Position numbers and translations under genes: made by a program. Positions 11,459 through 62,284 of a stretch of 64,000 nt of DNA are shown here, one piece after another. The stretch's first letter is position 1; each line of letters starts with the position of its first letter. The stretch spans positions 3,206-67,205 of the forward strand of contig CANQOY010000005.1 in NCBI GenBank assembly GCA_947625605.1, written 5' to 3'. Origin of the DNA: an uncultured Clostridia bacterium (lineage in GTDB: Bacteria > Bacillota > Clostridia > Christensenellales > Borkfalkiaceae). The notes under the pieces are model-generated. The model did no database searches. It saw nothing but the letters and a program-made list of their open reading frames with translations, and was not told the origin of the DNA.

Positions 11459-12294
11459 AATATCGGGAAGAAGTGGAAAAATTGTCGCTCGACGGCGCAC
11501 AGCGGGAGCGCATCGCCGCCGCCCTCAGGGAGCGGCGCGCGGCAGGGCGCGCCGAACAGGCCCGCGTCCGCAAGCGCGCGCTCGCAGCCGCCTCCCTCTC
11601 CGCGGCGCTCGCCCTCATCGTCGCAGCGCCCATCGGGATACGGTACGGCCTCAAAAGCGCGACCGCGAAAGATCAATCCGCAGGCGGGCCTTCCGTGGAG
11701 GACCCGAACGGAACCCAGACCCCGGGAGGGGAAAAAGATCCCGATTCGGGCAGCACCGGAACGGACCCCGAGCCGCCGGACGGAGAGATCACCCCGCCCG
11801 AACTGATCGAGGGCGTTGACGGGAGGATCGTCGATTGCAAGCCCATGTACGCGGCGGACGAGACGATTTTCATCCGTTACCGCGCCGTGGCGGGCACCCC
11901 GCTCACCGAAACGAAAGTGGAAAACGGCTTCTCCGTCGTCTCCTGCACGCTGATCTCTTCGGCCGAAAAGCGCCCGCGGACGGAATACACCTATCAAATC
12001 CAACTGAAAGCGGCGGAAGCGGGCGAACACCTCTCGGGCGGCGTGCGCTTCGAGACGGAGGATGGCAACCCCGCCGCCTGCATCCTCTACGGCTACCGCC
12101 CCGCGGAGGGCCCCCACGCGGACGGGACGATCTACACGAGCACGGTCTCGCAAGACGACGCATTCGGGGCCTATCTCCGCTTTTTGGTGGGGCTGGGAGA
12201 GATCACGGACGACGAGTATCACGATCGGCTCTCCGAATATTGGCGCGAGAGCGGCGCCGTGCGGGAAAAGATCGAAGTGATGCAGGCGCATTAA
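11455..12294 (+). CDS. putative anti-sigma factor / single-pass membrane protein
   Basis: ATGA overlap with the sigma gene, one TM (AAASLSAALALIVAAPIGI), extracytoplasmic C-domain. No zinc-binding anti-sigma motif seen. Confidence 0.5.
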   Translation: MKYREEVEKLSLDGAQRERIAAALRERRAAGRAEQARVRKRALAAASLSAALALIVAAPIGIRYGLKSATAKDQSAGGPSVEDPNGTQTPGGEKDPDSGSTGTDPEPPDGEITPPELIEGVDGRIVDCKPMYAADETIFIRYRAVAGTPLTETKVENGFSVVSCTLISSAEKRPRTEYTYQIQLKAAEAGEHLSGGVRFETEDGNPAACILYGYRPAEGPHADGTIYTSTVSQDDAFGAYLRFLVGLGEITDDEYHDRLSEYWRESGAVREKIEVMQAH

Positions 12295-12530
12295 AGGGGG
12301 AGACCGCTCTTGTCATTCCGAATGAAGAGCGCCACCCCTTCCGTCACTCGCGCTGCTCGTGCCACCCACCCCTCAATGGGTGGGCAAGGAAAGACCGATT
12401 CTCGGCGCACCCTTGAGGGGGAGCTCCGCCGCAGGCGGTGAGGGGGTGTCATCCCAAATGAAGAGTGCCACCCCTTCCGTCACTCGCGTTGCTCGTGCCA
12501 CCCACCCCTCAAGGGGTGGGCAAGGGAACC
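12293..12530. repeat. two tandem empty units of the arm-pair repeat
   Basis: Unit 1 is 12311-12390 (left arm truncated). Unit 2 is 12404-12527 and has the same arms as the DUF559 element joined by a 14-nt linker. Confidence 0.8.
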
Positions 12531-20069: not shown

Positions 20070-20540
20070 GGCGCCCCCTTGAGGGGGAGCTGTCTGCCCC
20101 GCAGACTGAGGGGGTGTTATTCCAATTCTAAATAATACAAGATCCTTTTCTTTACCTGTTCATAGTTGAATGCAACATCATAGTTCGATATCCTATAAAC
20201 AGAAATGCCGCGCTCTTTCAAAAAAGCATCGCGCCGAACATCGTATCGTTCCCCGTCCTCCTCAAAGTGCTGCGATCCGTCCAATTCAAGCGCAAGATTT
20301 TTTTGGGGACAATAGAAATCGACGACATAACAACCAAGCGCCTTTTGCCGCACGAACTTCACGGGAAGTTTGCGCAGAAATGTGTACCACAATTTCCGCT
20401 CTTCCTTTGTCATTGATTTTCGCAACGCTCGGGCGTTTTTGGTCAATTTCGGATTATATAAGTCGTTCATTTCTATGAGAACACCCCTTCCGTCGCGGCT
20501 TCGCCGCGCCACCCACCCCTCAAGGGGTGGGCAAGGGAGC
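20070..20540 (-). mobile_element. nested-palindrome repeat element carrying the DUF559 ORF (filled copy)
   Basis: Left arm 20070-20123 and right arm 20481-20540 match the adjacent arms at 12404-12527 and 39885-40104. The ORF occupies the junction. Confidence 0.5.
20117..20470 (-). CDS. DUF559 endonuclease-domain protein (Vsr-like fold), 117 aa
   Basis: NARALRKSMTKEERKLWYFLRK...VVDFYCPQKNLALELDGSQH...D..RD..L...G is the typical DUF559 pattern. The gene is visibly AT-richer than its flanks. ATG 20470. The stop lies inside the repeat arm. Confidence 0.8.
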   Translation of the reverse strand: MNDLYNPKLTKNARALRKSMTKEERKLWYTFLRKLPVKFVRQKALGCYVVDFYCPQKNLALELDGSQHFEEDGERYDVRRDAFLKERGISVYRISNYDVAFNYEQVKKRILYYLELE

Positions 20541-39746: not shown

Positions 39747-39774
39747 GCCGCCCGTGCTGAGAAGCACGGGCGGC
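39747..39774 (+). terminator. hairpin after glyQS
   Basis: GCCGCCCGTGCT-GAGA-AGCACGGGCGGC. Near-identical hairpin at 40238-40263. Confidence 0.6.
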
Positions 39775-39884
39775 TTGATTGTCTGAACGAAAACCACGGT
39801 CGTCGCGTGGTTCAAAAGAGGCTTTGCCGATGAACAGAAAAACAATAAAGATAAGTAGTGCAATGAGCGGGATGAATATTTCTT

Positions 39885-40219
39885 GGCGCCCCCTTTGAGG
39901 GAGGAGCGGTGCAATTCTGCTCAACAGTGCAGTGCACTGTGAGCTGCACCGCGACAGGAGGCGTGGCCTCGCCGACGGTGTTGCGGCGGTCCCTGCCGCC
40001 CAACCGGGTCGAGGCAAAGCCGAGACTGAGGGGGTGTCATTCCCACACCCCTTCCGTCACTCGCGTTGCTCGTGCCACCCACCCCTCAAGGGGTGGGCAA
40101 GGGGAGTCCGCGTCTCTCCGGTCGTTCCGCCCCGCTCGCTTTGTCTACGCTGTCATTCCGAGGGGCTTTGCCCCGAGAGATTCCCCTTAAACGAAGTCCG
40201 TCATCGACCAAGGGGATAC
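39885..40219. repeat. empty arm-pair repeat with 118-nt insert, followed by a TGTCATTCCG-type module
   Basis: Left arm 39885-39907, 118-nt insert, CTGAGGGGGTGTCATTCC 40026-40043, right arm 40044-40104, TGTCATTCCG...CCCCTTAAACGAAGTCCGTCATCGACCAAGGGGATAC 40151-40219. Confidence 0.8.
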
Positions 40220-40237: not shown

Positions 40238-40275
40238 CCGCCCGTGCGAAGAAGCACGGGCGGCGTGATTTTTTC
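40238..40275. terminator. hairpin + T-run at the 3' end of the isochorismatase-family gene
   Basis: CCGCCCGTGC-GAAGAA-GCACGGGCGG followed by GTGATTTTTT. Confidence 0.6.
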
Positions 40276-45480: not shown

Positions 45481-45969
45481 TCAGAAATCCTCTCCGTCGT
45501 CGTCATCCTCGTCATCGTCGTCGCCCGCGAGGGTGTAGATCTCGTCCCCCGTGACGTAGTCGAGGTCCTCCTCCTCTTCGGGTTCGAATTCCTCCTCGGG
45601 TTCCTCCTCGGGCTCGTCGAACTCTTCATCGAAGGCCTCGTCGATCTCCCCGATCTGGGAGTCGAGATCGGCGTCCGTATCGTCGTCGAGATACTCCCGC
45701 CACTCGTCATCATCCTCCTCGGGGACGGGTTCCTCGGCGTAATCCATCTTTCTCTTGCATTCCTCGCACATCGCTTCGCCGGGGCGCATCATGTTTTCGC
45801 CGCAGACGGGGCAGAGCTCGGTCGCAAGCTCGGCTTCGTCCTCTTCGTCGATCTCATCCATATCGCTGGGGATCCCCTTCATCTCTTTGAGGCAGACGTC
45901 GCAGTACTTCTGCTTCTCGGCGTCGATGTAATTGAGCTCGCAGCGCGGGCACTTGATATAGCGTACCAT
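45481..45969 (-). CDS. small zinc-ribbon protein with extremely acidic C-terminal tail
   Basis: CPRC..CDVC and CPVC..CEEC pairs, then about 90 aa dominated by D/E. ATG with SD GGAGGAAAA. Terminator at 45448-45470. Confidence 0.6.
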   Translation of the reverse strand: MVRYIKCPRCELNYIDAEKQKYCDVCLKEMKGIPSDMDEIDEEDEAELATELCPVCGENMMRPGEAMCEECKRKMDYAEEPVPEEDDDEWREYLDDDTDADLDSQIGEIDEAFDEEFDEPEEEPEEEFEPEEEEDLDYVTGDEIYTLAGDDDDEDDDDGEDF

Positions 45970-46140
45970 TTTTTCCTCCGAAACGCCCTTGTGGTAGGCT
46001 AATAAATTATATTTGTATTTATTTTTTTTGTAAACTGTTTTTTTATGCGTTTCGCAAAAAACTTTCGGAAATGTAAAAAAATTTTGCCCCGCGGGGCATG
46101 TGGTATTTCATTTTCGGGTATAGCCCTCCTTGGCTGCCCC

Positions 46141-46368
46141 TGTCATACCGAGTCTGCGTAGCAGACGAGTGTATCCCCTTGGTCGATGAACGGACTTCGT
46201 TTAAGGGGATTCTCTCCTCCCTCGCAAGCTCGGTCGTACTTTGCCCTTGCGGGCTCGTGCCGCCCTTCGACAACGAAAAGAACGTGCGGGCGGGGCGGAA
46301 TGACAGCGTGAGAAAAAGTGGGCGGGGCGGAATGACAGCGTAGACAGGGCAGGTCAAGGGGCGCCAAG
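46141..46368. repeat. full-length TGTCATACCG...CGGAATGACA unit plus partial copies
   Basis: The 46141-46305 unit has inverted termini. A partial duplicate ends at 46337. The reverse-oriented GGCGCCCCTTGACC motif ends at 46368. Confidence 0.8.
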
Positions 46369-46395
46369 AAAACGTGGCTTTCGTTTAGACAAAAC

Positions 46396-46422
46396 GCTCC
46401 CCCCGCGGGAAGCGGGGGGAGC
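46396..46422 (-). terminator. terminator after the lipoprotein gene
   Basis: GCTCCCCCCGC-loop-GCGGGGGGAGC. The minus strand is followed by GTTTTGTC. Confidence 0.7.
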
Positions 46423-46430
46423 GGAATGGA

Positions 46431-48872
46431 TCATTCATTAGGGGTATCCGGCGTCTCGGGAGCGGGTTCCTCGGGAGCAGGTTCTTCGGGAGCGGGTTCC
46501 TCGGGAACGGGTTCTTCGGGAGCGGGTTCCTCGGGAGCAGGTTCTTCGGGAACAGGCTCTTCGGGAACGGGTTCTTCGGGAGCGGGTTCCTCGGGAGCGG
46601 GCTCTTCCGTGAGTTCCTCCTCGGGCGTGGGCTCGGGATCGACGGCATAGACGTCGATGTCCCTATCGTCCGTGGTGTCAACGTGCATGCGCTTCTCCTT
46701 GGGCGCCTTCTGCGCGTTCTGCCGCTTCTTGTGGAAGAAGTGGAGGACGAGGAGCCCTGCAAGACCGACCACCAGCACGCTTCCGATGACGATGAGTGCG
46801 ATCGCCCACGCGGGCAGGTGCGTCTCCTCCTCTTCGGGCGGGGTGTAGCGGGTGAGGAACGTGGACCGCCAATAGTCGTCCCATGCCTCGTTGTCCGCGT
46901 CGTCCCACGTACCGATCTTCGTGACGAAGAAGGACTGCGTTCTGAACGAGGCGTCTCCCTCCTTGAAGTCGGTCTCTTCGAAGAGCTTCACCTCGTCGTA
47001 GGTGTATCCTTTCCCCTCGACGTATGCCGCAAAGGCCTCGCGGTCCTTTTCTTCATAGGGATTTTCGAGATCGGCGTCCTCCTTGATGGCGTCCTCATAT
47101 TCGCGCACGTTCTCGTTGACCAGATCCGCGTTGCCCGTGTAGAAGTAGCACTCGATGGCTTCGGCGAGGATGTCGTTGACGTCCGACCGGATGCGGCTGA
47201 GAAGCGCCTCGTCCCGGTCGGAGACGATATCCACGATCTCATCGTACAGATCGTTGCGCGCGGCGAGCTCGACGTTGTCCATGAGGCCATTCTCGTCTTT
47301 GAGGTTGATCGTGCTCACATAGTTGAAGGAGTTGCCGCCGTACGTCTTGCCGTCCGCAAAGAAGAGGACGTTGTCGACGATCTCGACGTCGTACCAACCG
47401 CTCGTATGCACCGCTTCGAGAATGCGCACGGGGACATAGTAATCGTTGTGATCCTCGGGATGCGTGAGGTTGCTGTAATCGTCCTTTCCGGTCCCGAGCT
47501 TATCGGTGACCCCGTTGTACACCGCGCGGTTGATGGAGGAACCGCCCGAGACGGAATTTGCATAATACAGATAGTGGTAGCCTTCCGCATCCGACTCGTT
47601 GTCGATGCCGATGATCTTGGGCGAGCTGGCCGTGCGGACGATCGTGGTCTCTGCGCCGTCTTCCACGTCAACGCGGATGAGGTTGGAGCCGTCCGCATAG
47701 ATGTAGTGGTGCTTGCCGCCCTCCCGATAGAAGAAGGCGTCGGTCACCGAGGAGGAAGCCGCGTCGGAAGCGATGACGTCGAACGATTCGGCCTCGCTGT
47801 CGTTTGCGGCGATGGTATCCCAGCCGGAGGCAAGGTCGGTCTCTTCGAGGAAGTAGAGCGTGCCGCTCGCGCCGACGACGCCGGGAGGCGCCGAAACGGG
47901 CTTACGGGTGAAGTAAAGGCCGCCGTTGTCGTACGTCTTTAAGCTGTAAATGTAGCCGACGGGATCTCCGGGCACCGTCTCGCTGTGATTGAATTGGCTG
48001 TAATTGTCGCGGAAGTCGTTCGCCCCGACGCCGTCGAGCACGAGCTCCCCGAAGTTGTGATAGGGCTCTTCCCCGTCGTTGTTCTCGTCCAGCCACGCCT
48101 GATCCCATTCGTAGTCGTAGGGAGCCTCCGTGGCGTCCGCGCGGACGCGGTAGATCTGGTTATAGGAGAGGTCTGCGCCGTAGTCGCTGTCCGGACGCAC
48201 CCGCACGCCCATCGTGTAGTACAAATAGGGCTCTCCCTTTTCGGAGGCGTGGAACTGATATTCCGAGGCCTCGCGCACGAGCAGAACGTCCTCCCCCGTC
48301 TCCGTGTTAAAGGAGTGGATGTCGAAAGCGGACGACCCCTCCACATAGAGCACATACACCACGCCGTTCTCCTCCACGAAGCGGTACGGCGTCGTATTCG
48401 TTTCGAGGCGGAAGTGGTGGCGGATGTCCGTCCCGTCGAGCTTGGCGCTCTTGAAGTCCAGCCAGCTGTTTTCCACCACGCCCGAGGTGTTGCGCACGTT
48501 GGTGGGCGTTGCGAAGTACACCCTGCCGCCATAGACGAAGATGCCCGCCTCGTGATCGCCTGCGACCATCAGGGAGGGGATGACCGTCTCGGCGCTGTTG
48601 ACGCCCGCTTCGACGTCCGCCTTGCGGATGCGCTGCAACGCACCCTTGACGGGAGCCCCGTAGGCGTTGTCCGCATCGCTGGTCTCAACGCCGTTGATGA
48701 AGTAGTAATAATCCCCCACGCCGACGACAAAGCCGCCGTTGGACTCCGCCGCCCCTTCGGGAATGCCGGCAGGCGTCTTGAAATCGCTGCCGCACGCCGC
48801 GATGGAGACGATCCCGAGGGAAAGCGTCGCGGCAGTCGCCAAAGCCAAAATTTTCTTTGTAGATTTACGCAT
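46431..48872 (-). CDS. large surface lipoprotein with C-terminal TM anchor and PEEPx-repeat tail
   Basis: Lipobox SIAAC after the signal peptide, long beta-rich ectodomain, TM WAIALIVIGSVLVVGLAGLLVL, tail (PEEPA/PEEPV)x10. SD GGAAGGA. Confidence 0.7.
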   Translation of the reverse strand: MRKSTKKILALATAATLSLGIVSIAACGSDFKTPAGIPEGAAESNGGFVVGVGDYYYFINGVETSDADNAYGAPVKGALQRIRKADVEAGVNSAETVIPSLMVAGDHEAGIFVYGGRVYFATPTNVRNTSGVVENSWLDFKSAKLDGTDIRHHFRLETNTTPYRFVEENGVVYVLYVEGSSAFDIHSFNTETGEDVLLVREASEYQFHASEKGEPYLYYTMGVRVRPDSDYGADLSYNQIYRVRADATEAPYDYEWDQAWLDENNDGEEPYHNFGELVLDGVGANDFRDNYSQFNHSETVPGDPVGYIYSLKTYDNGGLYFTRKPVSAPPGVVGASGTLYFLEETDLASGWDTIAANDSEAESFDVIASDAASSSVTDAFFYREGGKHHYIYADGSNLIRVDVEDGAETTIVRTASSPKIIGIDNESDAEGYHYLYYANSVSGGSSINRAVYNGVTDKLGTGKDDYSNLTHPEDHNDYYVPVRILEAVHTSGWYDVEIVDNVLFFADGKTYGGNSFNYVSTINLKDENGLMDNVELAARNDLYDEIVDIVSDRDEALLSRIRSDVNDILAEAIECYFYTGNADLVNENVREYEDAIKEDADLENPYEEKDREAFAAYVEGKGYTYDEVKLFEETDFKEGDASFRTQSFFVTKIGTWDDADNEAWDDYWRSTFLTRYTPPEEEETHLPAWAIALIVIGSVLVVGLAGLLVLHFFHKKRQNAQKAPKEKRMHVDTTDDRDIDVYAVDPEPTPEEELTEEPAPEEPAPEEPVPEEPVPEEPAPEEPAPEEPVPEEPAPEEPAPEEPAPETPDTPNE
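46455..46615 (-). repeat. in-frame 15-nt tandem repeat encoding (PEEPA/PEEPV)n
   Basis: Alternating GGGAGCGGGTTCCTC / GGGAGCAGGTTCTTC units inside the 3' end of the lipoprotein gene. Confidence 0.85.
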
Positions 48873-50500: not shown

Positions 50501-51052
50501 CTATACCTTTTTTATAATTACGGCAGGATTTCCCGCGGCGACGCAGCCCGGCGGAATGTCTCGGGTGACCACGGAACCCCCTCCAATCACGCTGCCGTCT
50601 CCGATCGTGACCCCGGGCATGATCTTGGCGCCGCCGCCGATCCACACGCCGTTTCCCACCGTGATGGGCCGCGCGTACTCCCTGCCGCTCATGCGGACCG
50701 CGGGATCGACGGGGTGCGTCCCCGCATAAAATCCGCACTGCGGACCGATGAGAACGTTGTCACCAAAGGTGATCTTGTTGCAGTCGAGAAACACGCAGTC
50801 GCGGTTGCAGAAGAAGTTGTCCCCGACCGTCGTGTTGAAGCCGTAATCGAACCAAACGTGCGGCTCGATCGAGACATGCTCCCCTCTTCCGCCGAGAAGC
50901 GCGGAGAGGATCTCCTGACGGCGGGCCTCCTCGTCGCCCGGCGTGCGGTTGTATTCCTCGCACAGCCTGCGGGCGCGCGCGTACAAAGTTCTGAGTTCGG
51001 GATCGGAACTGTCGTAGAGTTCCCCCGCGAGCATCTTCTCTCGTTCCGTCAT
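50501..51052 (-). CDS. maltose/galactoside O-acetyltransferase (hexapeptide-repeat)
   Basis: Mac-type N-terminus MLAGELYDSSDPEL and left-handed beta-helix repeats (ITVGNGVWIGGGAKIMPGVTIGDGSVIGGGSVV). ATG 51052 with SD AAAGGGGGAA. Confidence 0.85.
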   Translation of the reverse strand: MTEREKMLAGELYDSSDPELRTLYARARRLCEEYNRTPGDEEARRQEILSALLGGRGEHVSIEPHVWFDYGFNTTVGDNFFCNRDCVFLDCNKITFGDNVLIGPQCGFYAGTHPVDPAVRMSGREYARPITVGNGVWIGGGAKIMPGVTIGDGSVIGGGSVVTRDIPPGCVAAGNPAVIIKKV

Positions 51053-51057
51053 GGTTC

Positions 51058-51836
51058 CCCCTTTCGCGCTGCGCGACCCAATTCGCCACGCCACGCACGC
51101 TTCCTGTCTTTGAGAACATACAAACTTCGCGGGCGACACGGCTTTGAGATGCACACTCTAACCCCTCGCAAATTTCTTTGCCCTCTTTCCTGTCCCCGCA
51201 GGGGGATTCTTTCTTGAAAGAAATTTGCGAAAGCTCAAAAATTTCCTTGCGCGAGCAGGGTCTCCCTGCGCTGCGCGACCCAATTTGCCACGCCATGCAC
51301 GCTTCCTGTCTTTGAGGTCATGCAGGCTCGCGGGCGACATGGCTTTGAGATGATATATCCTAACCCCTCGCAAATTTCTTTGCCCTCTTTCCTGCCCCGC
51401 AGGGAGCTCTTTCATGAAAGAAATTTGCGAAAGCTAAAAAATTTCTTGCGCGAGCAGGGTCCCCCTGCGCTGCGCGACCCAATTCGCCACGCCACGCACG
51501 CTTCCTGTCTTTGAGAACATGTATGCTCCGCGGGCGACATGGCTTTGAGTTGCGCACTCTAACCCCTCGCAAATTTCTTTGCCACTATTTTTGCCCCGCA
51601 GGGGGATTCTTTCTTGAAAGAAATTTGCGAAAGCTCAAAAATTTCCTTGCGCGAGCAGGGTTCCCCTGCGCTGCGCGACCCCATTTGCCACGCCACCGCA
51701 GGCTTCTTGTCTTTGAGAACATGTAGGCTCCGCGGGCGACACGGCTTTGAGATGATGAAACTTAACCCCTCGCAAATTTCTTTGCCCTCTTTCCTGCCCC
51801 GCAGGGAGCTCTTTCATGAAAGAAATTTGCGAAAAA
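51058..51836. repeat. tandem array, 3.8 copies of a ~200-bp unit in A-B-A-B order
   Basis: The anchor GCGCTGCGCGACCC recurs at 51066, 51268, 51467 and 51668 (spacings 202/199/201). Each unit has a 13-bp inverted repeat CGCAAATTTCTTT/AAAGAAATTTGCG. Confidence 0.9.
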
Positions 51837-56810: not shown

Positions 56811-57028
56811 GTTCCCCTTTTGACCCTGCCCGTCCCACGCTGTCATTCCGCCCCACCCGCACCGTCTCTCCTGTCATTCCGCCCCGCCCGCACGTTCTTT
56901 TCGTTGTCCAAGGGCGGCACGAGCCCGTAAGGGCGAAGTAAGGGCAACGCCCCGAGAGAATCCCCTTAAACGAAGTCCGTCATCGACCAGGGGGATACAC
57001 TCGCCCGTTCCACGGACTCGGTATGACA
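56811..57028. repeat. TGTCATTCCG...CGGTATGACA unit (reverse complement of the 46141 unit) plus partial copy
   Basis: 56872-57028 aligns with the reverse complement of 46141-46305. An extra TGTCATTCCG fragment lies at 56841-56871. Confidence 0.8.
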
Positions 57029-57049
57029 GGGCAACCGATTCGGGTTATG

Positions 57050-61435: not shown

Positions 61436-61581
61436 GATCCGATTCTCCTTGTCTCCCATTGTAGCAGAGCGCAAGGGGCGAACCTTGCCGAAGTTGGGCG
61501 AATGATGGAAAATTACAGAATAAACGCCGCTCTCTCAAAAGCGGCGCGAGGATGCGGACATGGTACCGGGGTAAGGTGTCC

Positions 61582-61809
61582 TGTCATACCGAGCACGCAG
61601 AGCGGGCGAGTGTATCCCCTTGGTCGTTGACGGACTTCGTTTCCCTGTCATACCGCCCCGCCCGCACGTTCTTATCGTTGTCCAAGGGCGGCACGAGCCC
61701 GCAAGGGCGAAGTATTCCGCGAAGCGGACGAGTGTATCCCCTTGGTCGATAACGGACTTCGTATCAGGGGATTCTCTCCTCCCTCGCAAGCTCGGTCGTC
61801 GGAATGACA
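61582..61809. repeat. rearranged/nested copy of the TGTCAT(A/T)CCG unit
   Basis: Termini at 61582-61591 and 61800-61809. The CGAGTGTATCCCCTTGGTCG block occurs twice (61607, 61729) around an inverted CCCCGCCCGCACG...GAAGTA block (61646-61714). Confidence 0.75.
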
Positions 61810-61828
61810 AGAGGATCGTGCGGCAGCT

Positions 61829-62284
61829 TCAAAGGGGAGAGGGGAAGAGCACTACCTTTTTCCCGAGCTCCCGCGCATAGCGCACGGTGTAGGCCGTGCC
61901 GCCCGTCTTTCGCGTACAGTAGGCAAAGACGAGGTCGGCCCGCTCCGCCATATAGCGGTTGCGCGCGAGAAAACAGCCCGCGTAGTACGAGGCGGCAAGC
62001 ACCTCTCTTTCATCGCACAGGGCGAGCAGGGAGCGGTATCTCTCCCGCTCGCCGCGGGGGAAGCTCCTCTCTTGTCCCTCGTGCGGAATACAGGCCTGAA
62101 TGCGGACATGGTACCGCCTTTTGAGGTCTATGAGGCATTCGAGCGCGAGCAGATCGAACCCGCGGGCCATGCCGCAGCAGAAGGTGGTGCAGCCCTCGCG
62201 GATGAGCGCTTCGAGCGCGTCGTACAGCGCGCTGCGGTCAAATCCTTCCGGCAGTTCCCTGTGCCCCGTGAGGGCGCACGTCAT
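61829..62284 (-). CDS. DUF1273 / SLOG-fold protein (YpsA-like)
   Basis: CALTGHRELP N-terminus, CCGMARGFDLLALE, GGTAYTVRYA. Starts 8 nt after the rsmG stop. Confidence 0.75.
   Translation of the reverse strand: MTCALTGHRELPEGFDRSALYDALEALIREGCTTFCCGMARGFDLLALECLIDLKRRYHVRIQACIPHEGQERSFPRGERERYRSLLALCDEREVLAASYYAGCFLARNRYMAERADLVFAYCTRKTGGTAYTVRYARELGKKVVLFPSPL

What the first reader, a model, noticed from the sequence alone, without database searches (positions are those of the whole stretch)
46141..46305. 165-bp unit with TGTCATACCG...CGGAATGACA inverted termini is the core of a mosaic (BIME/MITE-like) repeat family at 7 or more intergenic loci
The 46141-46305 unit and the 56872-57028 unit are reverse complements over almost their full length. 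Shared blocks are CGAGTGTATCCCCTTGGTCGATGA(A)CGGACTTCGTTTAAGGGGATTCTCTC and CCCCGCCCGCACGTTCTTTTCGTTGTC(C/G)AAGGGCGGCACGAGCCCG(T/C)AAGGGC. Both units are bounded by TGTCAT(A/T)CCG and its inverse. Related modules recur at about 60-260, 12293-12530, 39885-40219, 61582-61809 and as the arms at 20070-20540. Every copy is intergenic, and several lie between convergent genes next to terminators. I recognise no transposase or REP-associated tyrosine transposase gene in the window. Reading frames across copies are broken by indels, so the many small ORFs over them are not coding. The density, roughly 1.6 kb of this 64 kb, is high for a Bacillota chromosome.
Basis: seen in the sequence. Interest (0 to 1): 0.6.

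Follow-up and report, generated by a model that had tools for sequence, protein, structure and literature searches.

The report
Hairpin repeat mosaic of an Ssn-type nuclease
The 165-bp unit is built from short DNA hairpin repeats that, throughout this rabbit-gut Clostridia genus, bracket a tiny GIY-YIG nuclease gene of the Ssn type described in 2025, so it is a Gram-positive variant of a known nuclease-plus-repeat system and not an orphan transposon relic.

Summary
The two units are inverse copies (79% over 265 bp). TGTCATWCCG occurs 11 times in the window (0.27 expected) and 80 times in the 1.43-Mb draft (5 expected). The repeats belong to a network of 58 loci (about 20.6 kb).

The unit is a composite, not a core:
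- It holds two convergent hairpins of the form GTCAT(T/A)CCGAG, variable mini-hairpin, GAG(A/T)G(A/T)ATCC.
- One of these hairpins has a 60-nt module, beta, nested inside it.

The same hairpins flank the genome's only small single-domain GIY-YIG gene (91 aa, contig C1, outside the window). Equivalent hairpins with covarying arms flank all 29 homologues inspected in sister species. This is the architecture of Ssn nucleases and their NTS/SRM repeats (Chenal 2025); NTS begins CGTCATTCC.

Three tested spacers are about 250-600 bp shorter in relatives. No RAYT, TnpB or IS110 gene and no Rfam family was found.

Caveats: the published SRM search pattern is not enriched here, cd10448 membership could not be tested, and activity is inferred.

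Beta (about 2,200 signature hits in 92 of 130 genus genomes, covarying) appears undescribed. The scan met an Ssn-linked hairpin mosaic before, on another genome.

The parts
46139..46178 (+). Type-2 hairpin unit, CCTGTCATACCGAG-TCTGCGTAGCAGAC-GAGTGTATCCCC. It has the head GTCATACCG, an inner 6-bp stem with a GTA triloop (a GCGTAGC mini-hairpin), and a 3' arm whose GTAT pairs with ATAC of the head.
   Evidence: In all 40 such units of the genome the T/A at head position 6 matches the A/T of the 3' arm.
46179..46204 (.). Central spacer of the palindromic 'alpha' element (TTGGTCGATGAACGGACTTCGTTTAA). It is the place where the nuclease gene sits in the gene-bearing version of the element.
46205..46305 (-). 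Type-1 hairpin unit read on the minus strand. The head TGTCATTCCG is at 46296-46305 and the 3' arm GAGAGAATCCCC at 46205-46216. Module beta is nested between the head and the inner segment CGACCGAGCTTGCGAGGGAG.
46237..46296 (-). Module beta: GCCCCGCCCG...AAGGGCGGCACGAG-CCCGCAAGGG-CAAAGTA. It has a 6-bp P1 stem and a variable P2 hairpin, and it always lies directly 3' of the head.
46306..46349 (-). Head-only unit: a second TGTCATTCCGCCCCGCCC with its upstream flank, with a spacing of about 32 nt to the next head.
56841..57030 (+). Second composite, in inverse orientation to the first. It holds a head-only unit (56841-56871), a head (56872-56881), beta (56881-56940), the inner hairpin plus GAGAGAATCCCC arm, and a type-2 unit on the minus strand (56991-57027).
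61580..61809 (+). Third composite. It holds a type-2 unit (61583-61619), a head plus beta (61646-61714), the body of a second type-2 unit, and a type-1 unit on the minus strand (61767-61808).
   Evidence: The five nearest relatives have spacers about 250-320 bp shorter here.
40121..40219 (+). A head-only unit plus the left half of alpha (TGTCATTCCGAGGGGCTTTGCCCCGAGAGATTCCCC...). It lies at the right end of a 455-bp repeat-laden insert.

Best explanation
The unit is a composite of repeats of the Ssn-related-motif (NTS-like) kind. These are the DNA hairpins that go with a small site-specific single-strand DNA nuclease of the GIY-YIG superfamily.

Each basic unit is GTCAT(T/A)CCGAG, then a variable mini-hairpin, then GAG(A/T)G(A/T)ATCC. 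Two such units facing each other form a 105-bp palindromic element, 'alpha'. Alpha looks like the gene-less shell of the cassette hairpin-ssn-hairpin found on contig C1. In the unit at 46141-46305 one of the two hairpins also carries a nested 60-nt two-hairpin module, 'beta'.

Proposed working: when the DNA is single-stranded (replication, uptake or repair), the head strand folds. The 91-aa nuclease binds the hairpin together with its conserved 5' GTCAT flank and nicks nearby, as shown for Neisseria SsnA. Nicking followed by repair or recombination between the many identical heads would then copy, truncate and shuffle modules. That would give mosaic arrays next to terminators.

Shown here: the anatomy, the covariation, the link between gene and repeat in 29 of 29 loci inspected, and the presence or absence of inserts between species. 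Inferred: the enzyme's activity, its substrate strand, and the way the repeats spread.
For: - Partner gene. G000 has only two GIY-YIG matches, UvrC (620-aa frame) and a 91-aa single-domain protein at C1:118180-118455. That gene has TGTCATTCCGAGGGCGAAGCCTAAGAGAATCCCC about 20 nt upstream of its ATG. It lies between arrays of type-2 units with a 63-bp period, with 14 heads within about 600 bp.
- Same layout in sister species. In all 29 homologous loci inspected, a forward hairpin lies upstream and a reversed one downstream.
- Arm covariation between genomes. The arms differ but stay complementary: ATTC/GAAT, ATAC/GTAT, ATTTC/GAAAT, ATCCT/AGGAT, ATGCT/AGCAT, ATGTT/AACAT, ACCCT/AGGGT, ATGGT/ACCAT, ATTGC/GCAAT. 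There are 183 perfect 5-bp-arm hairpins after [CG]TC in 160 kb, against 18-30 in controls.
- Pairing within G000. All 40 units pair head T/A with arm A/T. The 26 distinct inner hairpins form stems of at least 4 bp in 69% of cases, against 22% for shuffles.
- Strand asymmetry that fits a single-stranded DNA substrate. C-GNA-G triloops occur in 119 of 186 hairpins on the head strand, against 10 for the complementary motif. GCGNAGC occurs 67 times against 0. GCGNAGC is the known extra-stable DNA mini-hairpin (PMC13037366, PMC3201870).
- Match to the literature. The published NTS is CGTCATTCCCGCGMAVGCGGGAATCYRG. Ssn genes are single-domain, about 94 aa and flanked by such repeats, and the enzyme needs the conserved upstream flank and cuts only one strand of ssDNA (PMC11893778).
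- Gene-less shell. Alpha copies equal the cassette without the gene in G000, G015 and G103.
- Insertion differences between species. This was seen at 3 of 3 spacers tested.
- Association with beta. Among genomes with at least 10 beta copies, 26 of 56 have ssn; among the rest, 10 of 74 do.
Against: - The published degenerate SRM search sequence is not enriched in G000: 9 hits against 12.3 expected. The local hairpins have only 4-bp outer arms, interrupted by CGAG.
- Membership of the protein in cd10448, or similarity to Neisseria SsnA, could not be tested. The nearest solved structures are UPF0213 proteins, and only at E 2e-5. NCBIfam has no specific family for it.
- 30 of 56 beta-rich genomes show no ssn homologue. 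These are fragmented MAGs, and the gene sits inside repeats that assemble poorly.
- G000 has a single ssn copy, and no biochemistry exists for any Clostridial member.
- A second nuclease-repeat pair (DUF559 with BoxC-like modules) shares the same arrays and the same junction motif, so the assignment of partners could be confounded.
- A function at the RNA level cannot be excluded.
Confidence: 0.72

Rival explanations
1. Classical MITE family. Alpha and its composites would be non-autonomous derivatives of a DDE or other transposon that is missing from this draft, moved in trans through the 12-bp terminal inverted repeats TGTCATWCCGAG/CTCGGWATGACA.
For: Alpha has perfect 12-bp inverted termini and a size of about 105 bp. 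Copies are present or absent at orthologous spacers. Many copies lie at contig ends, so multi-copy IS elements could be unassembled.
Against: The flanks of full copies show no consistent target-site duplication. No Y1, TnpB or IS110 gene was found in a 97%-complete genome. The 'termini' are the conserved flanks of hairpins whose arms covary, and single hairpins and head-only units are as common as pairs. The only gene found inside such termini, in 29 of 29 loci, is the GIY-YIG gene.
Confidence: 0.08
2. Structured RNA elements. The hairpins would act after transcription at gene 3' ends, as stabilisers, RNase III sites or accessory terminators, and the repeats would persist for that reason.
For: 41 of 44 classifiable loci adjoin at least one gene 3' end, and the window copies sit beside intrinsic terminators. 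Stems covary, which RNA would also explain.
Against: No Rfam family matched, even at E up to 10. Units occur in both orientations relative to neighbouring genes, and alpha is palindromic. The loop bias towards C-GNA-G and GCGNAGC is the hallmark of DNA mini-hairpins. The tight linkage to a nuclease gene is not expected for a plain terminator. No expression data could be obtained.
Confidence: 0.1
3. REP/BIME-type elements maintained by a RAYT (IS200/IS605-like Y1 transposase).
For: The clusters are mosaics of oppositely oriented palindromic units at gene ends, as in BIMEs. Beta always lies 3' of one fixed sequence in one orientation, as IS200/IS605 relatives do.
Against: PF01797 finds nothing in G000, while the control genomes ring. 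No TnpB was found. The units have no GTAG-type REP head. The gene that is flanked by the units is GIY-YIG, not Y1.
Confidence: 0.03
4. Beta and/or the head motif belong to the DUF559 (Vsr-like) nuclease system and not to the GIY-YIG gene. The motif GGAATGACA would then be a relic of the 3' end of DUF559 genes.
For: In the window's DUF559 cassette the stop codon lies inside TGTTATTCC. Gene-less U+F copies carry a perfect TGTCATTCCGA at that place. DUF559 genes in the genus often end ...TTGGAATAA or GGAATGAG.
Against: The DUF559 flanks in 25 loci are BoxC-like G/C palindromes, not GTCAT hairpins. DUF559 presence does not track beta: 7 of the 11 genomes with a match to the unit have it, against 5 of the 13 without. 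Beta lies within 220 bp of about ten ssn genes and is nested inside GTCAT hairpins in 75 of 111 cases.
Confidence: 0.05

Closest known systems
Ssn nucleases with NTS / Ssn-related-motif (SRM) repeats (Chenal et al., Nat Commun 2025, PMC11893778)
   Same: The gene is small and single-domain GIY-YIG (91 aa here, 94 aa in N. meningitidis). It is flanked on both sides by oppositely oriented hairpin repeats. The repeats have a conserved, oriented 5' flank GTCAT followed by a palindrome that ends ...AATC. Copies are many and mostly intergenic. Hairpin arms co-vary with lineage.
   Different: The host is a Gram-positive gut Clostridia genus. The outer stem is only 4-5 bp and is interrupted by CGAG/GAG around a variable GNA-loop mini-hairpin. 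The published SRM pattern is not enriched. Extras here are palindromic gene-less shells (alpha), head-only tandem units and the nested beta module. Neither the activity nor cd10448 membership was tested.
Neisseria intergenic mosaic elements (NIMEs: RS blocks bounded by dRS3, the core of NTS)
   Same: Arrays of 40-160-bp blocks are joined at one short conserved inverted motif, lie between genes, and are polymorphic between relatives.
   Different: The motif sequence differs (ATTCC-G... versus ATTCCC-N8-GGGAAT). The block sequences are unrelated. No link to filamentous prophage integration was seen.
REP/BIME elements with RAYT transposases of Proteobacteria
   Same: Hairpin units lie in alternating orientation and form mosaics at gene ends. 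The partner gene is itself flanked by its repeats. The Ssn paper draws the same parallel.
   Different: There is no Y1 transposase. The head is different, and the partner enzyme has a different fold.
BoxC / PIT 'triplex-motif' repeats linked to DUF559 genes
   Same: They lie in the same arrays (modules F, U, H, J, L, M, X) and show the same gene-bearing versus gene-less relation.
   Different: They are G/C-rich palindromes such as CCCACCCCTCGAGGGGTGGG, without a GTCAT-flanked hairpin. Their partner is a Vsr-like nuclease, not a GIY-YIG one.
BOX elements of Streptococcus pneumoniae (boxA-boxB(n)-boxC)
   Same: They are modular, with a variable number of internal modules, intergenic and hairpin-rich.
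   Different: No partner gene is known for BOX. There is no sequence similarity and no shared junction motif.

Membership tests
Ssn nuclease / SRM repeat system | The partner is a single-domain GIY-YIG protein of about 90-100 aa | tested here: met
   A 91-aa ORF lies at G000:C1:118180-118455. Pfam GIY-YIG covers residues 1-74 (E 1.7e-14) and no other domain matches. The only other GIY-YIG hit in the genome is UvrC.
Ssn nuclease / SRM repeat system | The protein falls in CDD cd10448 or matches N. meningitidis SsnA at blastp E < 1e-10 | not testable with these tools
   Neither CDD nor a Neisseria sequence was on hand. NCBIfam has no specific model. The nearest PDB entries are UPF0213 proteins at E 2e-5.
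Ssn nuclease / SRM repeat system | The gene is flanked on both sides by the repeat | tested here: met
   This holds in G000 and in 29 of 29 homologous loci of the genus inspected.
Ssn nuclease / SRM repeat system | The repeat is a 20-50-nt hairpin with a conserved, oriented upstream flank (CGTCAT...) | tested here: met
   G000 has 40 units of the form GTCATWCCGAG-hairpin-GAGWGWATCC with matched arms. Relatives have 183 hairpins after [CG]TC against 18-30 in controls, with at least 9 arm variants.
Ssn nuclease / SRM repeat system | The repeats match the published degenerate SRM search sequence and are enriched over shuffles | tested here: not met
   There are 9 matches against 12.3 +/- 3.4 in 20 dinucleotide shuffles, and none of the 9 lies in the repeat loci.
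Ssn nuclease / SRM repeat system | The enzyme cuts one strand of ssDNA next to the hairpin, and cuts neither dsDNA nor RNA | not testable with these tools
   Only indirect support exists: a strand-asymmetric bias towards GNA and GCGNAGC DNA mini-hairpins on the head strand.
REP/BIME with RAYT | A Y1 (HUH) transposase gene is present and flanked by the repeats | tested here: not met
   PF01797 gives no match in G000 (97% complete) while the control genomes ring.
REP/BIME with RAYT | Mosaic clusters of oppositely oriented palindromic units lie between genes | tested here: met
   See the module maps of 58 loci.
MITE | Terminal inverted repeats | tested here: met
   The 12-bp termini TGTCATWCCGAG / CTCGGWATGACA bound alpha and the composites.
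MITE | Target-site duplications flank the copies | tested here: inconclusive
   Full alpha copies show no short direct repeat. One array (39.7-40.3 kb) is flanked by a 30/33-nt duplicated terminator hairpin that is single in relatives. The two other loci show none.
MITE | A parent element with a transposase shares the termini | tested here: not met
   No Y1, TnpB or IS110 gene was found. The only gene-bearing version carries the GIY-YIG gene.
Neisseria NIME / dRS3 | Blocks are bounded by dRS3, ATTCCC-N8-GGGAAT | tested here: not met
   The local motif is ATTCCG / ATACCG with a 4-bp arm and a longer interior. The arrangement is alike, but the sequence is not.
Any Rfam RNA family | A covariance-model match | tested here: not met
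   The window gave no hit at gathering scores. In 45950-46450 only chance-level hits appeared (E 0.7 or higher), and none lies on the unit.

The most novel reading that the evidence does not exclude
Module beta is an element in its own right. It is a 60-nt, two-hairpin DNA module that lies directly 3' of the GTCAYNCYG head in all G000 head-bearing copies and, in 75 of 111 head-bearing copies across the genus, sits inside the loop of an Ssn-type hairpin. One reading is a hyper-parasitic single-strand insertion that targets the nuclease's own recognition hairpins. Another is an add-on that alters or blocks cleavage. It has spread to about 2,200 signature copies in 92 of 130 species of one genus and almost nowhere else. 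Together with the gene-less alpha shells, this would be the first comparative evidence that Ssn cassettes and their hairpins behave as mobile DNA.
Probability: 0.25. Interest if true: 0.65.

Novelty: new variant of a known kind. Interest (0 to 1): 0.45.

Why it matters
Ssn nucleases were described only in 2025, mostly from Gram-negative bacteria, and how their repeats multiply is an open question. This genus of small-genome rabbit-gut Clostridia offers a dense natural data set:
- dozens of species with and without the gene;
- lineage-specific hairpin arms that co-vary, which predict enzyme/site pairs for ssDNA tools;
- gene-less shells of the cassette;
- empty and filled orthologous sites;
- a conserved module nested inside the hairpins.

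For genome annotation it explains about 1.4% of the genome, many contig breaks, and many spurious small ORFs in these MAGs. It also shows that two different small-nuclease/repeat systems (GIY-YIG/GTCAT hairpins and DUF559/BoxC-like palindromes) pile up in the same intergenic arrays.

Tried and rejected
- Rfam gave no hit at gathering scores on the whole window, and only chance-level hits, none on the unit, at E up to 10 on 45950-46450.
- Searches of the genome for RAYT/IS200 (PF01797), TnpB (PF07282) and IS110 (PF01548) found none. There are two tyrosine recombinases, neither near the repeats.
- The DUF559 gene as partner of alpha/beta was rejected, because its flanks are BoxC-like and its presence does not track beta.
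- The published SRM regular expression is not enriched, so the repeats are filed as a variant and not as a literal match.
- Plasmid and phage collections gave no match to the unit by blastn.
- A literature search for the head and hairpin sequences as text, and for DUF559 plus repeats, found nothing relevant.
- The supplementary tables of the Ssn paper are not held.
- A small conserved protein was rejected. Copies differ by module swaps and by indels that are not multiples of three. The variable segments keep base pairing, not codons.
- Target-site duplications were looked for in full alpha copies and at three spacers. Only one terminator duplication was found.

Full report
**Observation.**
- BLAST aligns the two loci in opposite orientation at 79% identity over 265 bp. 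The difference is concentrated in one inner segment of about 20 nt.
- The bounding 10-mer TGTCATWCCG occurs 11 times in the window against 0.27 expected. It occurs 80 times in the 1.43-Mb, 37-contig, 97%-complete draft against 4.95 expected.
- Both strands of the unit fold better than dinucleotide shuffles as DNA (z -3.6 and -3.9).

**Census.** Self-BLAST of the genome gives one connected network of 58 repeat loci. It totals about 20.6 kb, or 1.4% of the genome. Fourteen loci sit at contig ends, so copy numbers are lower bounds.
- Cutting the loci at piled-up alignment ends resolves them into recurring modules.
- The modules of the finding are 'alpha' (about 105 bp, 48 full or partial matches, 6 of them complete), 'beta' (about 60-70 bp, 22 matches, about 19 of them copies) and short head-only units of about 32 nt.
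- Other modules (F, U, H, J, L, M, Q, X) are G/C palindromes of another kind.
- In the window, alpha and beta occur at 40121-40219, 46139-46349, 56841-57030 and 61580-61809.
They share only the arrays and the junction motif.
- With crude gene calls, the loci are 18 convergent, 23 tandem, 3 divergent and 14 at contig ends.

**Anatomy.** The basic unit is GTCAT(T/A)CCGAG, a variable stem-loop, then GAG(A/T)G(A/T)ATCC.
- The genome holds 40 such units. In all of them a T at head position 6 goes with ...GAATCC, and an A goes with ...GTATCC, so ATTC pairs with GAAT and ATAC with GTAT.
- The 26 distinct inner segments form stems of 4 bp or more in 69% of cases, against 22% for shuffles, mostly with triloops.
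- Alpha is one unit of each type facing the other, which is why it has 12-bp inverted termini.
- The unit at 46141-46305 has four parts: a type-2 unit on the plus strand (46139-46178), a 26-nt centre, a type-1 unit on the minus strand (46205-46305), and beta nested in the type-1 unit (46237-46296). A head-only unit follows (46306-46349).
- About a dozen composites exist, in three architectures. The finding's exact architecture recurs at C6:8354-8520 (91% identity) and at C36:2616-2726.

**Partner gene.** A note from another window of this scan pointed to Ssn nucleases.
- PF01541 finds two GIY-YIG genes in G000, UvrC and a 91-aa single-domain ORF at C1:118180-118455.
- About 20 nt upstream of that ORF's ATG lies TGTCATTCCGAGGGCGAAGCCTAAGAGAATCCCC. 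On both sides are arrays of type-2 units with a 63-bp period.
- An alpha copy 250 bp upstream matches the left and right flanks of the gene but lacks the gene. The same relation holds in G015 and G103, so alpha looks like the gene-less shell of the cassette. Whether the gene was lost or gained cannot be told.

**Genus-wide picture.** Homologues with E < 1e-15 occur in 36 of 130 genomes of the genus.
- In all 29 loci inspected, a forward hairpin lies upstream and a reversed hairpin downstream.
- The arms differ between species but stay complementary: ATTC/GAAT, ATAC/GTAT, ATTTC/GAAAT, ATCCT/AGGAT, ATGCT/AGCAT, ATGTT/AACAT, ACCCT/AGGGT, ATGGT/ACCAT, ATTGC/GCAAT.
- A scan of 160 kb of these loci finds 183 hairpins with a perfect 5-bp arm after [CG]TC. 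Controls with reversed or merely complemented arms give 30 and 18.
- The loops are strand-asymmetric. C-GNA-G occurs in 119 of 186 hairpins on the head strand, against 10 for its complement. GCGNAGC occurs 67 times against 0. GCGNAGC and GNA triloops closed by C:G are the classical extra-stable DNA mini-hairpins (PMC13037366, PMC3201870). This points to one DNA strand as the functional form.

**Beta.** Beta always follows the head directly, in three different alpha contexts.
- Across 167 distinct copies, the variable dinucleotide of its P1 stem is Watson-Crick complementary in 159, with six states. RNAalifold on 30 copies shows two covarying pairs and no broken pair in a 6-bp stem. The P2 hairpin has 75 different inserts.
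- In 111 copies with a head just upstream, the complementary arm lies within 70 nt downstream of beta in 75. Controls give 5-7. So beta sits inside the hairpin.
- Its 3' signature CGGCACGAG-N5-16-CGAAGTA gives 2,199 hits in 92 of 130 genus genomes, against about 4 for the reversed pattern.
- Outside the genus it was found in 0 of 8 other genomes of the family and in 1 of 192 others of the order.
- Of genomes with 10 or more beta copies, 26 of 56 have ssn; of the rest, 10 of 74 do. The nominal odds ratio is 5.5, but relatives are not independent and MAGs lose repeat-flanked genes.

**Mobility.**
- Spacer between the 162-aa and 813-aa genes: five relatives have about 70 bp with a single terminator hairpin. 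G000 has the roughly 330-bp mosaic between two hairpins. G136 has a different mosaic with six CGGAATGACG heads.
- Spacer at 61.6 kb: all five nearest relatives are about 250-320 bp shorter.
- Spacer at 39.7-40.3 kb: three of the five have 100-134 bp and one terminator. G000 has 724 bp, flanked by a 30/33-nt duplicate of the terminator hairpin.
- Short target duplications were not seen.

**Comparison with what is known.** Chenal et al. (PMC11893778) describe Ssn as follows.
- The proteins are single-domain GIY-YIG proteins (94 aa in N. meningitidis).
- They bind a hairpin repeat, NTS = CGTCATTCCCGCGMAVGCGGGAATCYRG, which contains dRS3 of the Neisseria mosaic elements.
- They cut one strand of ssDNA just upstream, and they need the conserved 5' flank.
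- 71% of homologues have such motifs in their flanks.
- The layout NTS-ssnA-NTS resembles an IS and, like RAYT/REP, may explain how the repeats expand.

The present repeats share the GTCATTCC head, the ...AATC end, the flanking of the gene and the covarying arms. They do not fit the published degenerate pattern (9 hits against 12.3 expected), because a short outer stem encloses CGAG and an inner mini-hairpin. Membership of the protein in cd10448 could not be tested. I therefore file this as a variant of the Ssn/SRM kind and not as a proven member.

**Rivals.** A transposase-driven MITE, REP/RAYT, a structured RNA and the co-resident DUF559 system were each considered. Plasmid and phage collections hold nothing similar. 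ComEC and DprA genes are present, so uptake of single-stranded DNA is at least encoded. That is not evidence of competence.

**Shown and inferred.** Shown: the anatomy, the covariation, the strand asymmetry, the gene-repeat linkage, the restriction of beta to the genus, and insert differences between species. Inferred: that the 91-aa protein cuts ssDNA at these hairpins, that nicking and repair or recombination between heads copies and shuffles modules, and that beta changes recognition or is an insertion of its own.

**Verdict.** This is a real and well-defined repeat system, explained largely by a family published in 2025, with new features in a new lineage. Interest is moderate.

Noticed in passing
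window 39747-39780 and 40238-40270: The terminator hairpin CGCCCGTGC..GAAGCACGGGCGGC.TGATT is present twice (30 of 33 nt identical), on both sides of a 455-bp repeat-laden insert. G024, G087 and G015 have a single hairpin of a different sequence in a 100-134-bp spacer. It looks like a long target duplication, or a copy made during insertion.
   Followed up: partly
window 12311-12330 and 20070-20540: Modules U+F are the gene-less form of the DUF559 cassette. Where the gene sits in the cassette, the gene-less copies carry TGTCATTCCGAATGA, two heads overlapping as a palindrome. In the cassette the DUF559 stop codon lies inside TGTTATTCC. Why the junction of a BoxC-like element carries the Ssn-type head is unexplained.
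   Followed up: partly
window 46306-46349, 56841-56871; G000:C1:141322-141361; relatives L050, L052, L053: There are tandem head-only units of about 30-32 nt (upstream flank, then TGTCATTCCG, then the first 8-10 nt of beta). Analogous runs of the local head occur beside ssn genes in other species. They look like repeated truncated copies.
   Followed up: no
L044 (G136:C11:45700-46650): The orthologous spacer of the 46.1-kb locus in another species holds a different mosaic, with six CGGAATGACG heads and a GTCACCCTGAGCCTGTCGAAGGGT hairpin. The same site was therefore filled independently.
   Followed up: partly
window 45970-46085: The region upstream of the 162-aa gene (minus strand) is conserved at about 75% across more than 100 species of the genus. 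It includes a near-consensus TTTACA-17-TATAAT promoter and the invariant GGCTAATAAATTATATT. The Rfam manA-II hit there is at chance level (E 0.92).
   Followed up: no
window 61826-62284 (minus strand): The ORF next to the 61.6-kb repeat locus gives a weak DprA/Smf-family match (29 bits) with one in-frame TGA. It could be a degenerate paralogue or an unrelated Rossmann-like protein.
   Followed up: no
L203/L205 (G307:C64:307-570): Two beta-like signatures lie 240 bp apart in one genome of a different family of the order. This is the only hit outside the genus among 200 genomes. It could be transfer, binning contamination or chance.
   Followed up: no
window 51050-51836: The roughly 200-bp tandem array already reported for this window joins the same BLAST network through a shared module (E-type segments). 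It has none of the GTCAT hairpins.
   Followed up: no
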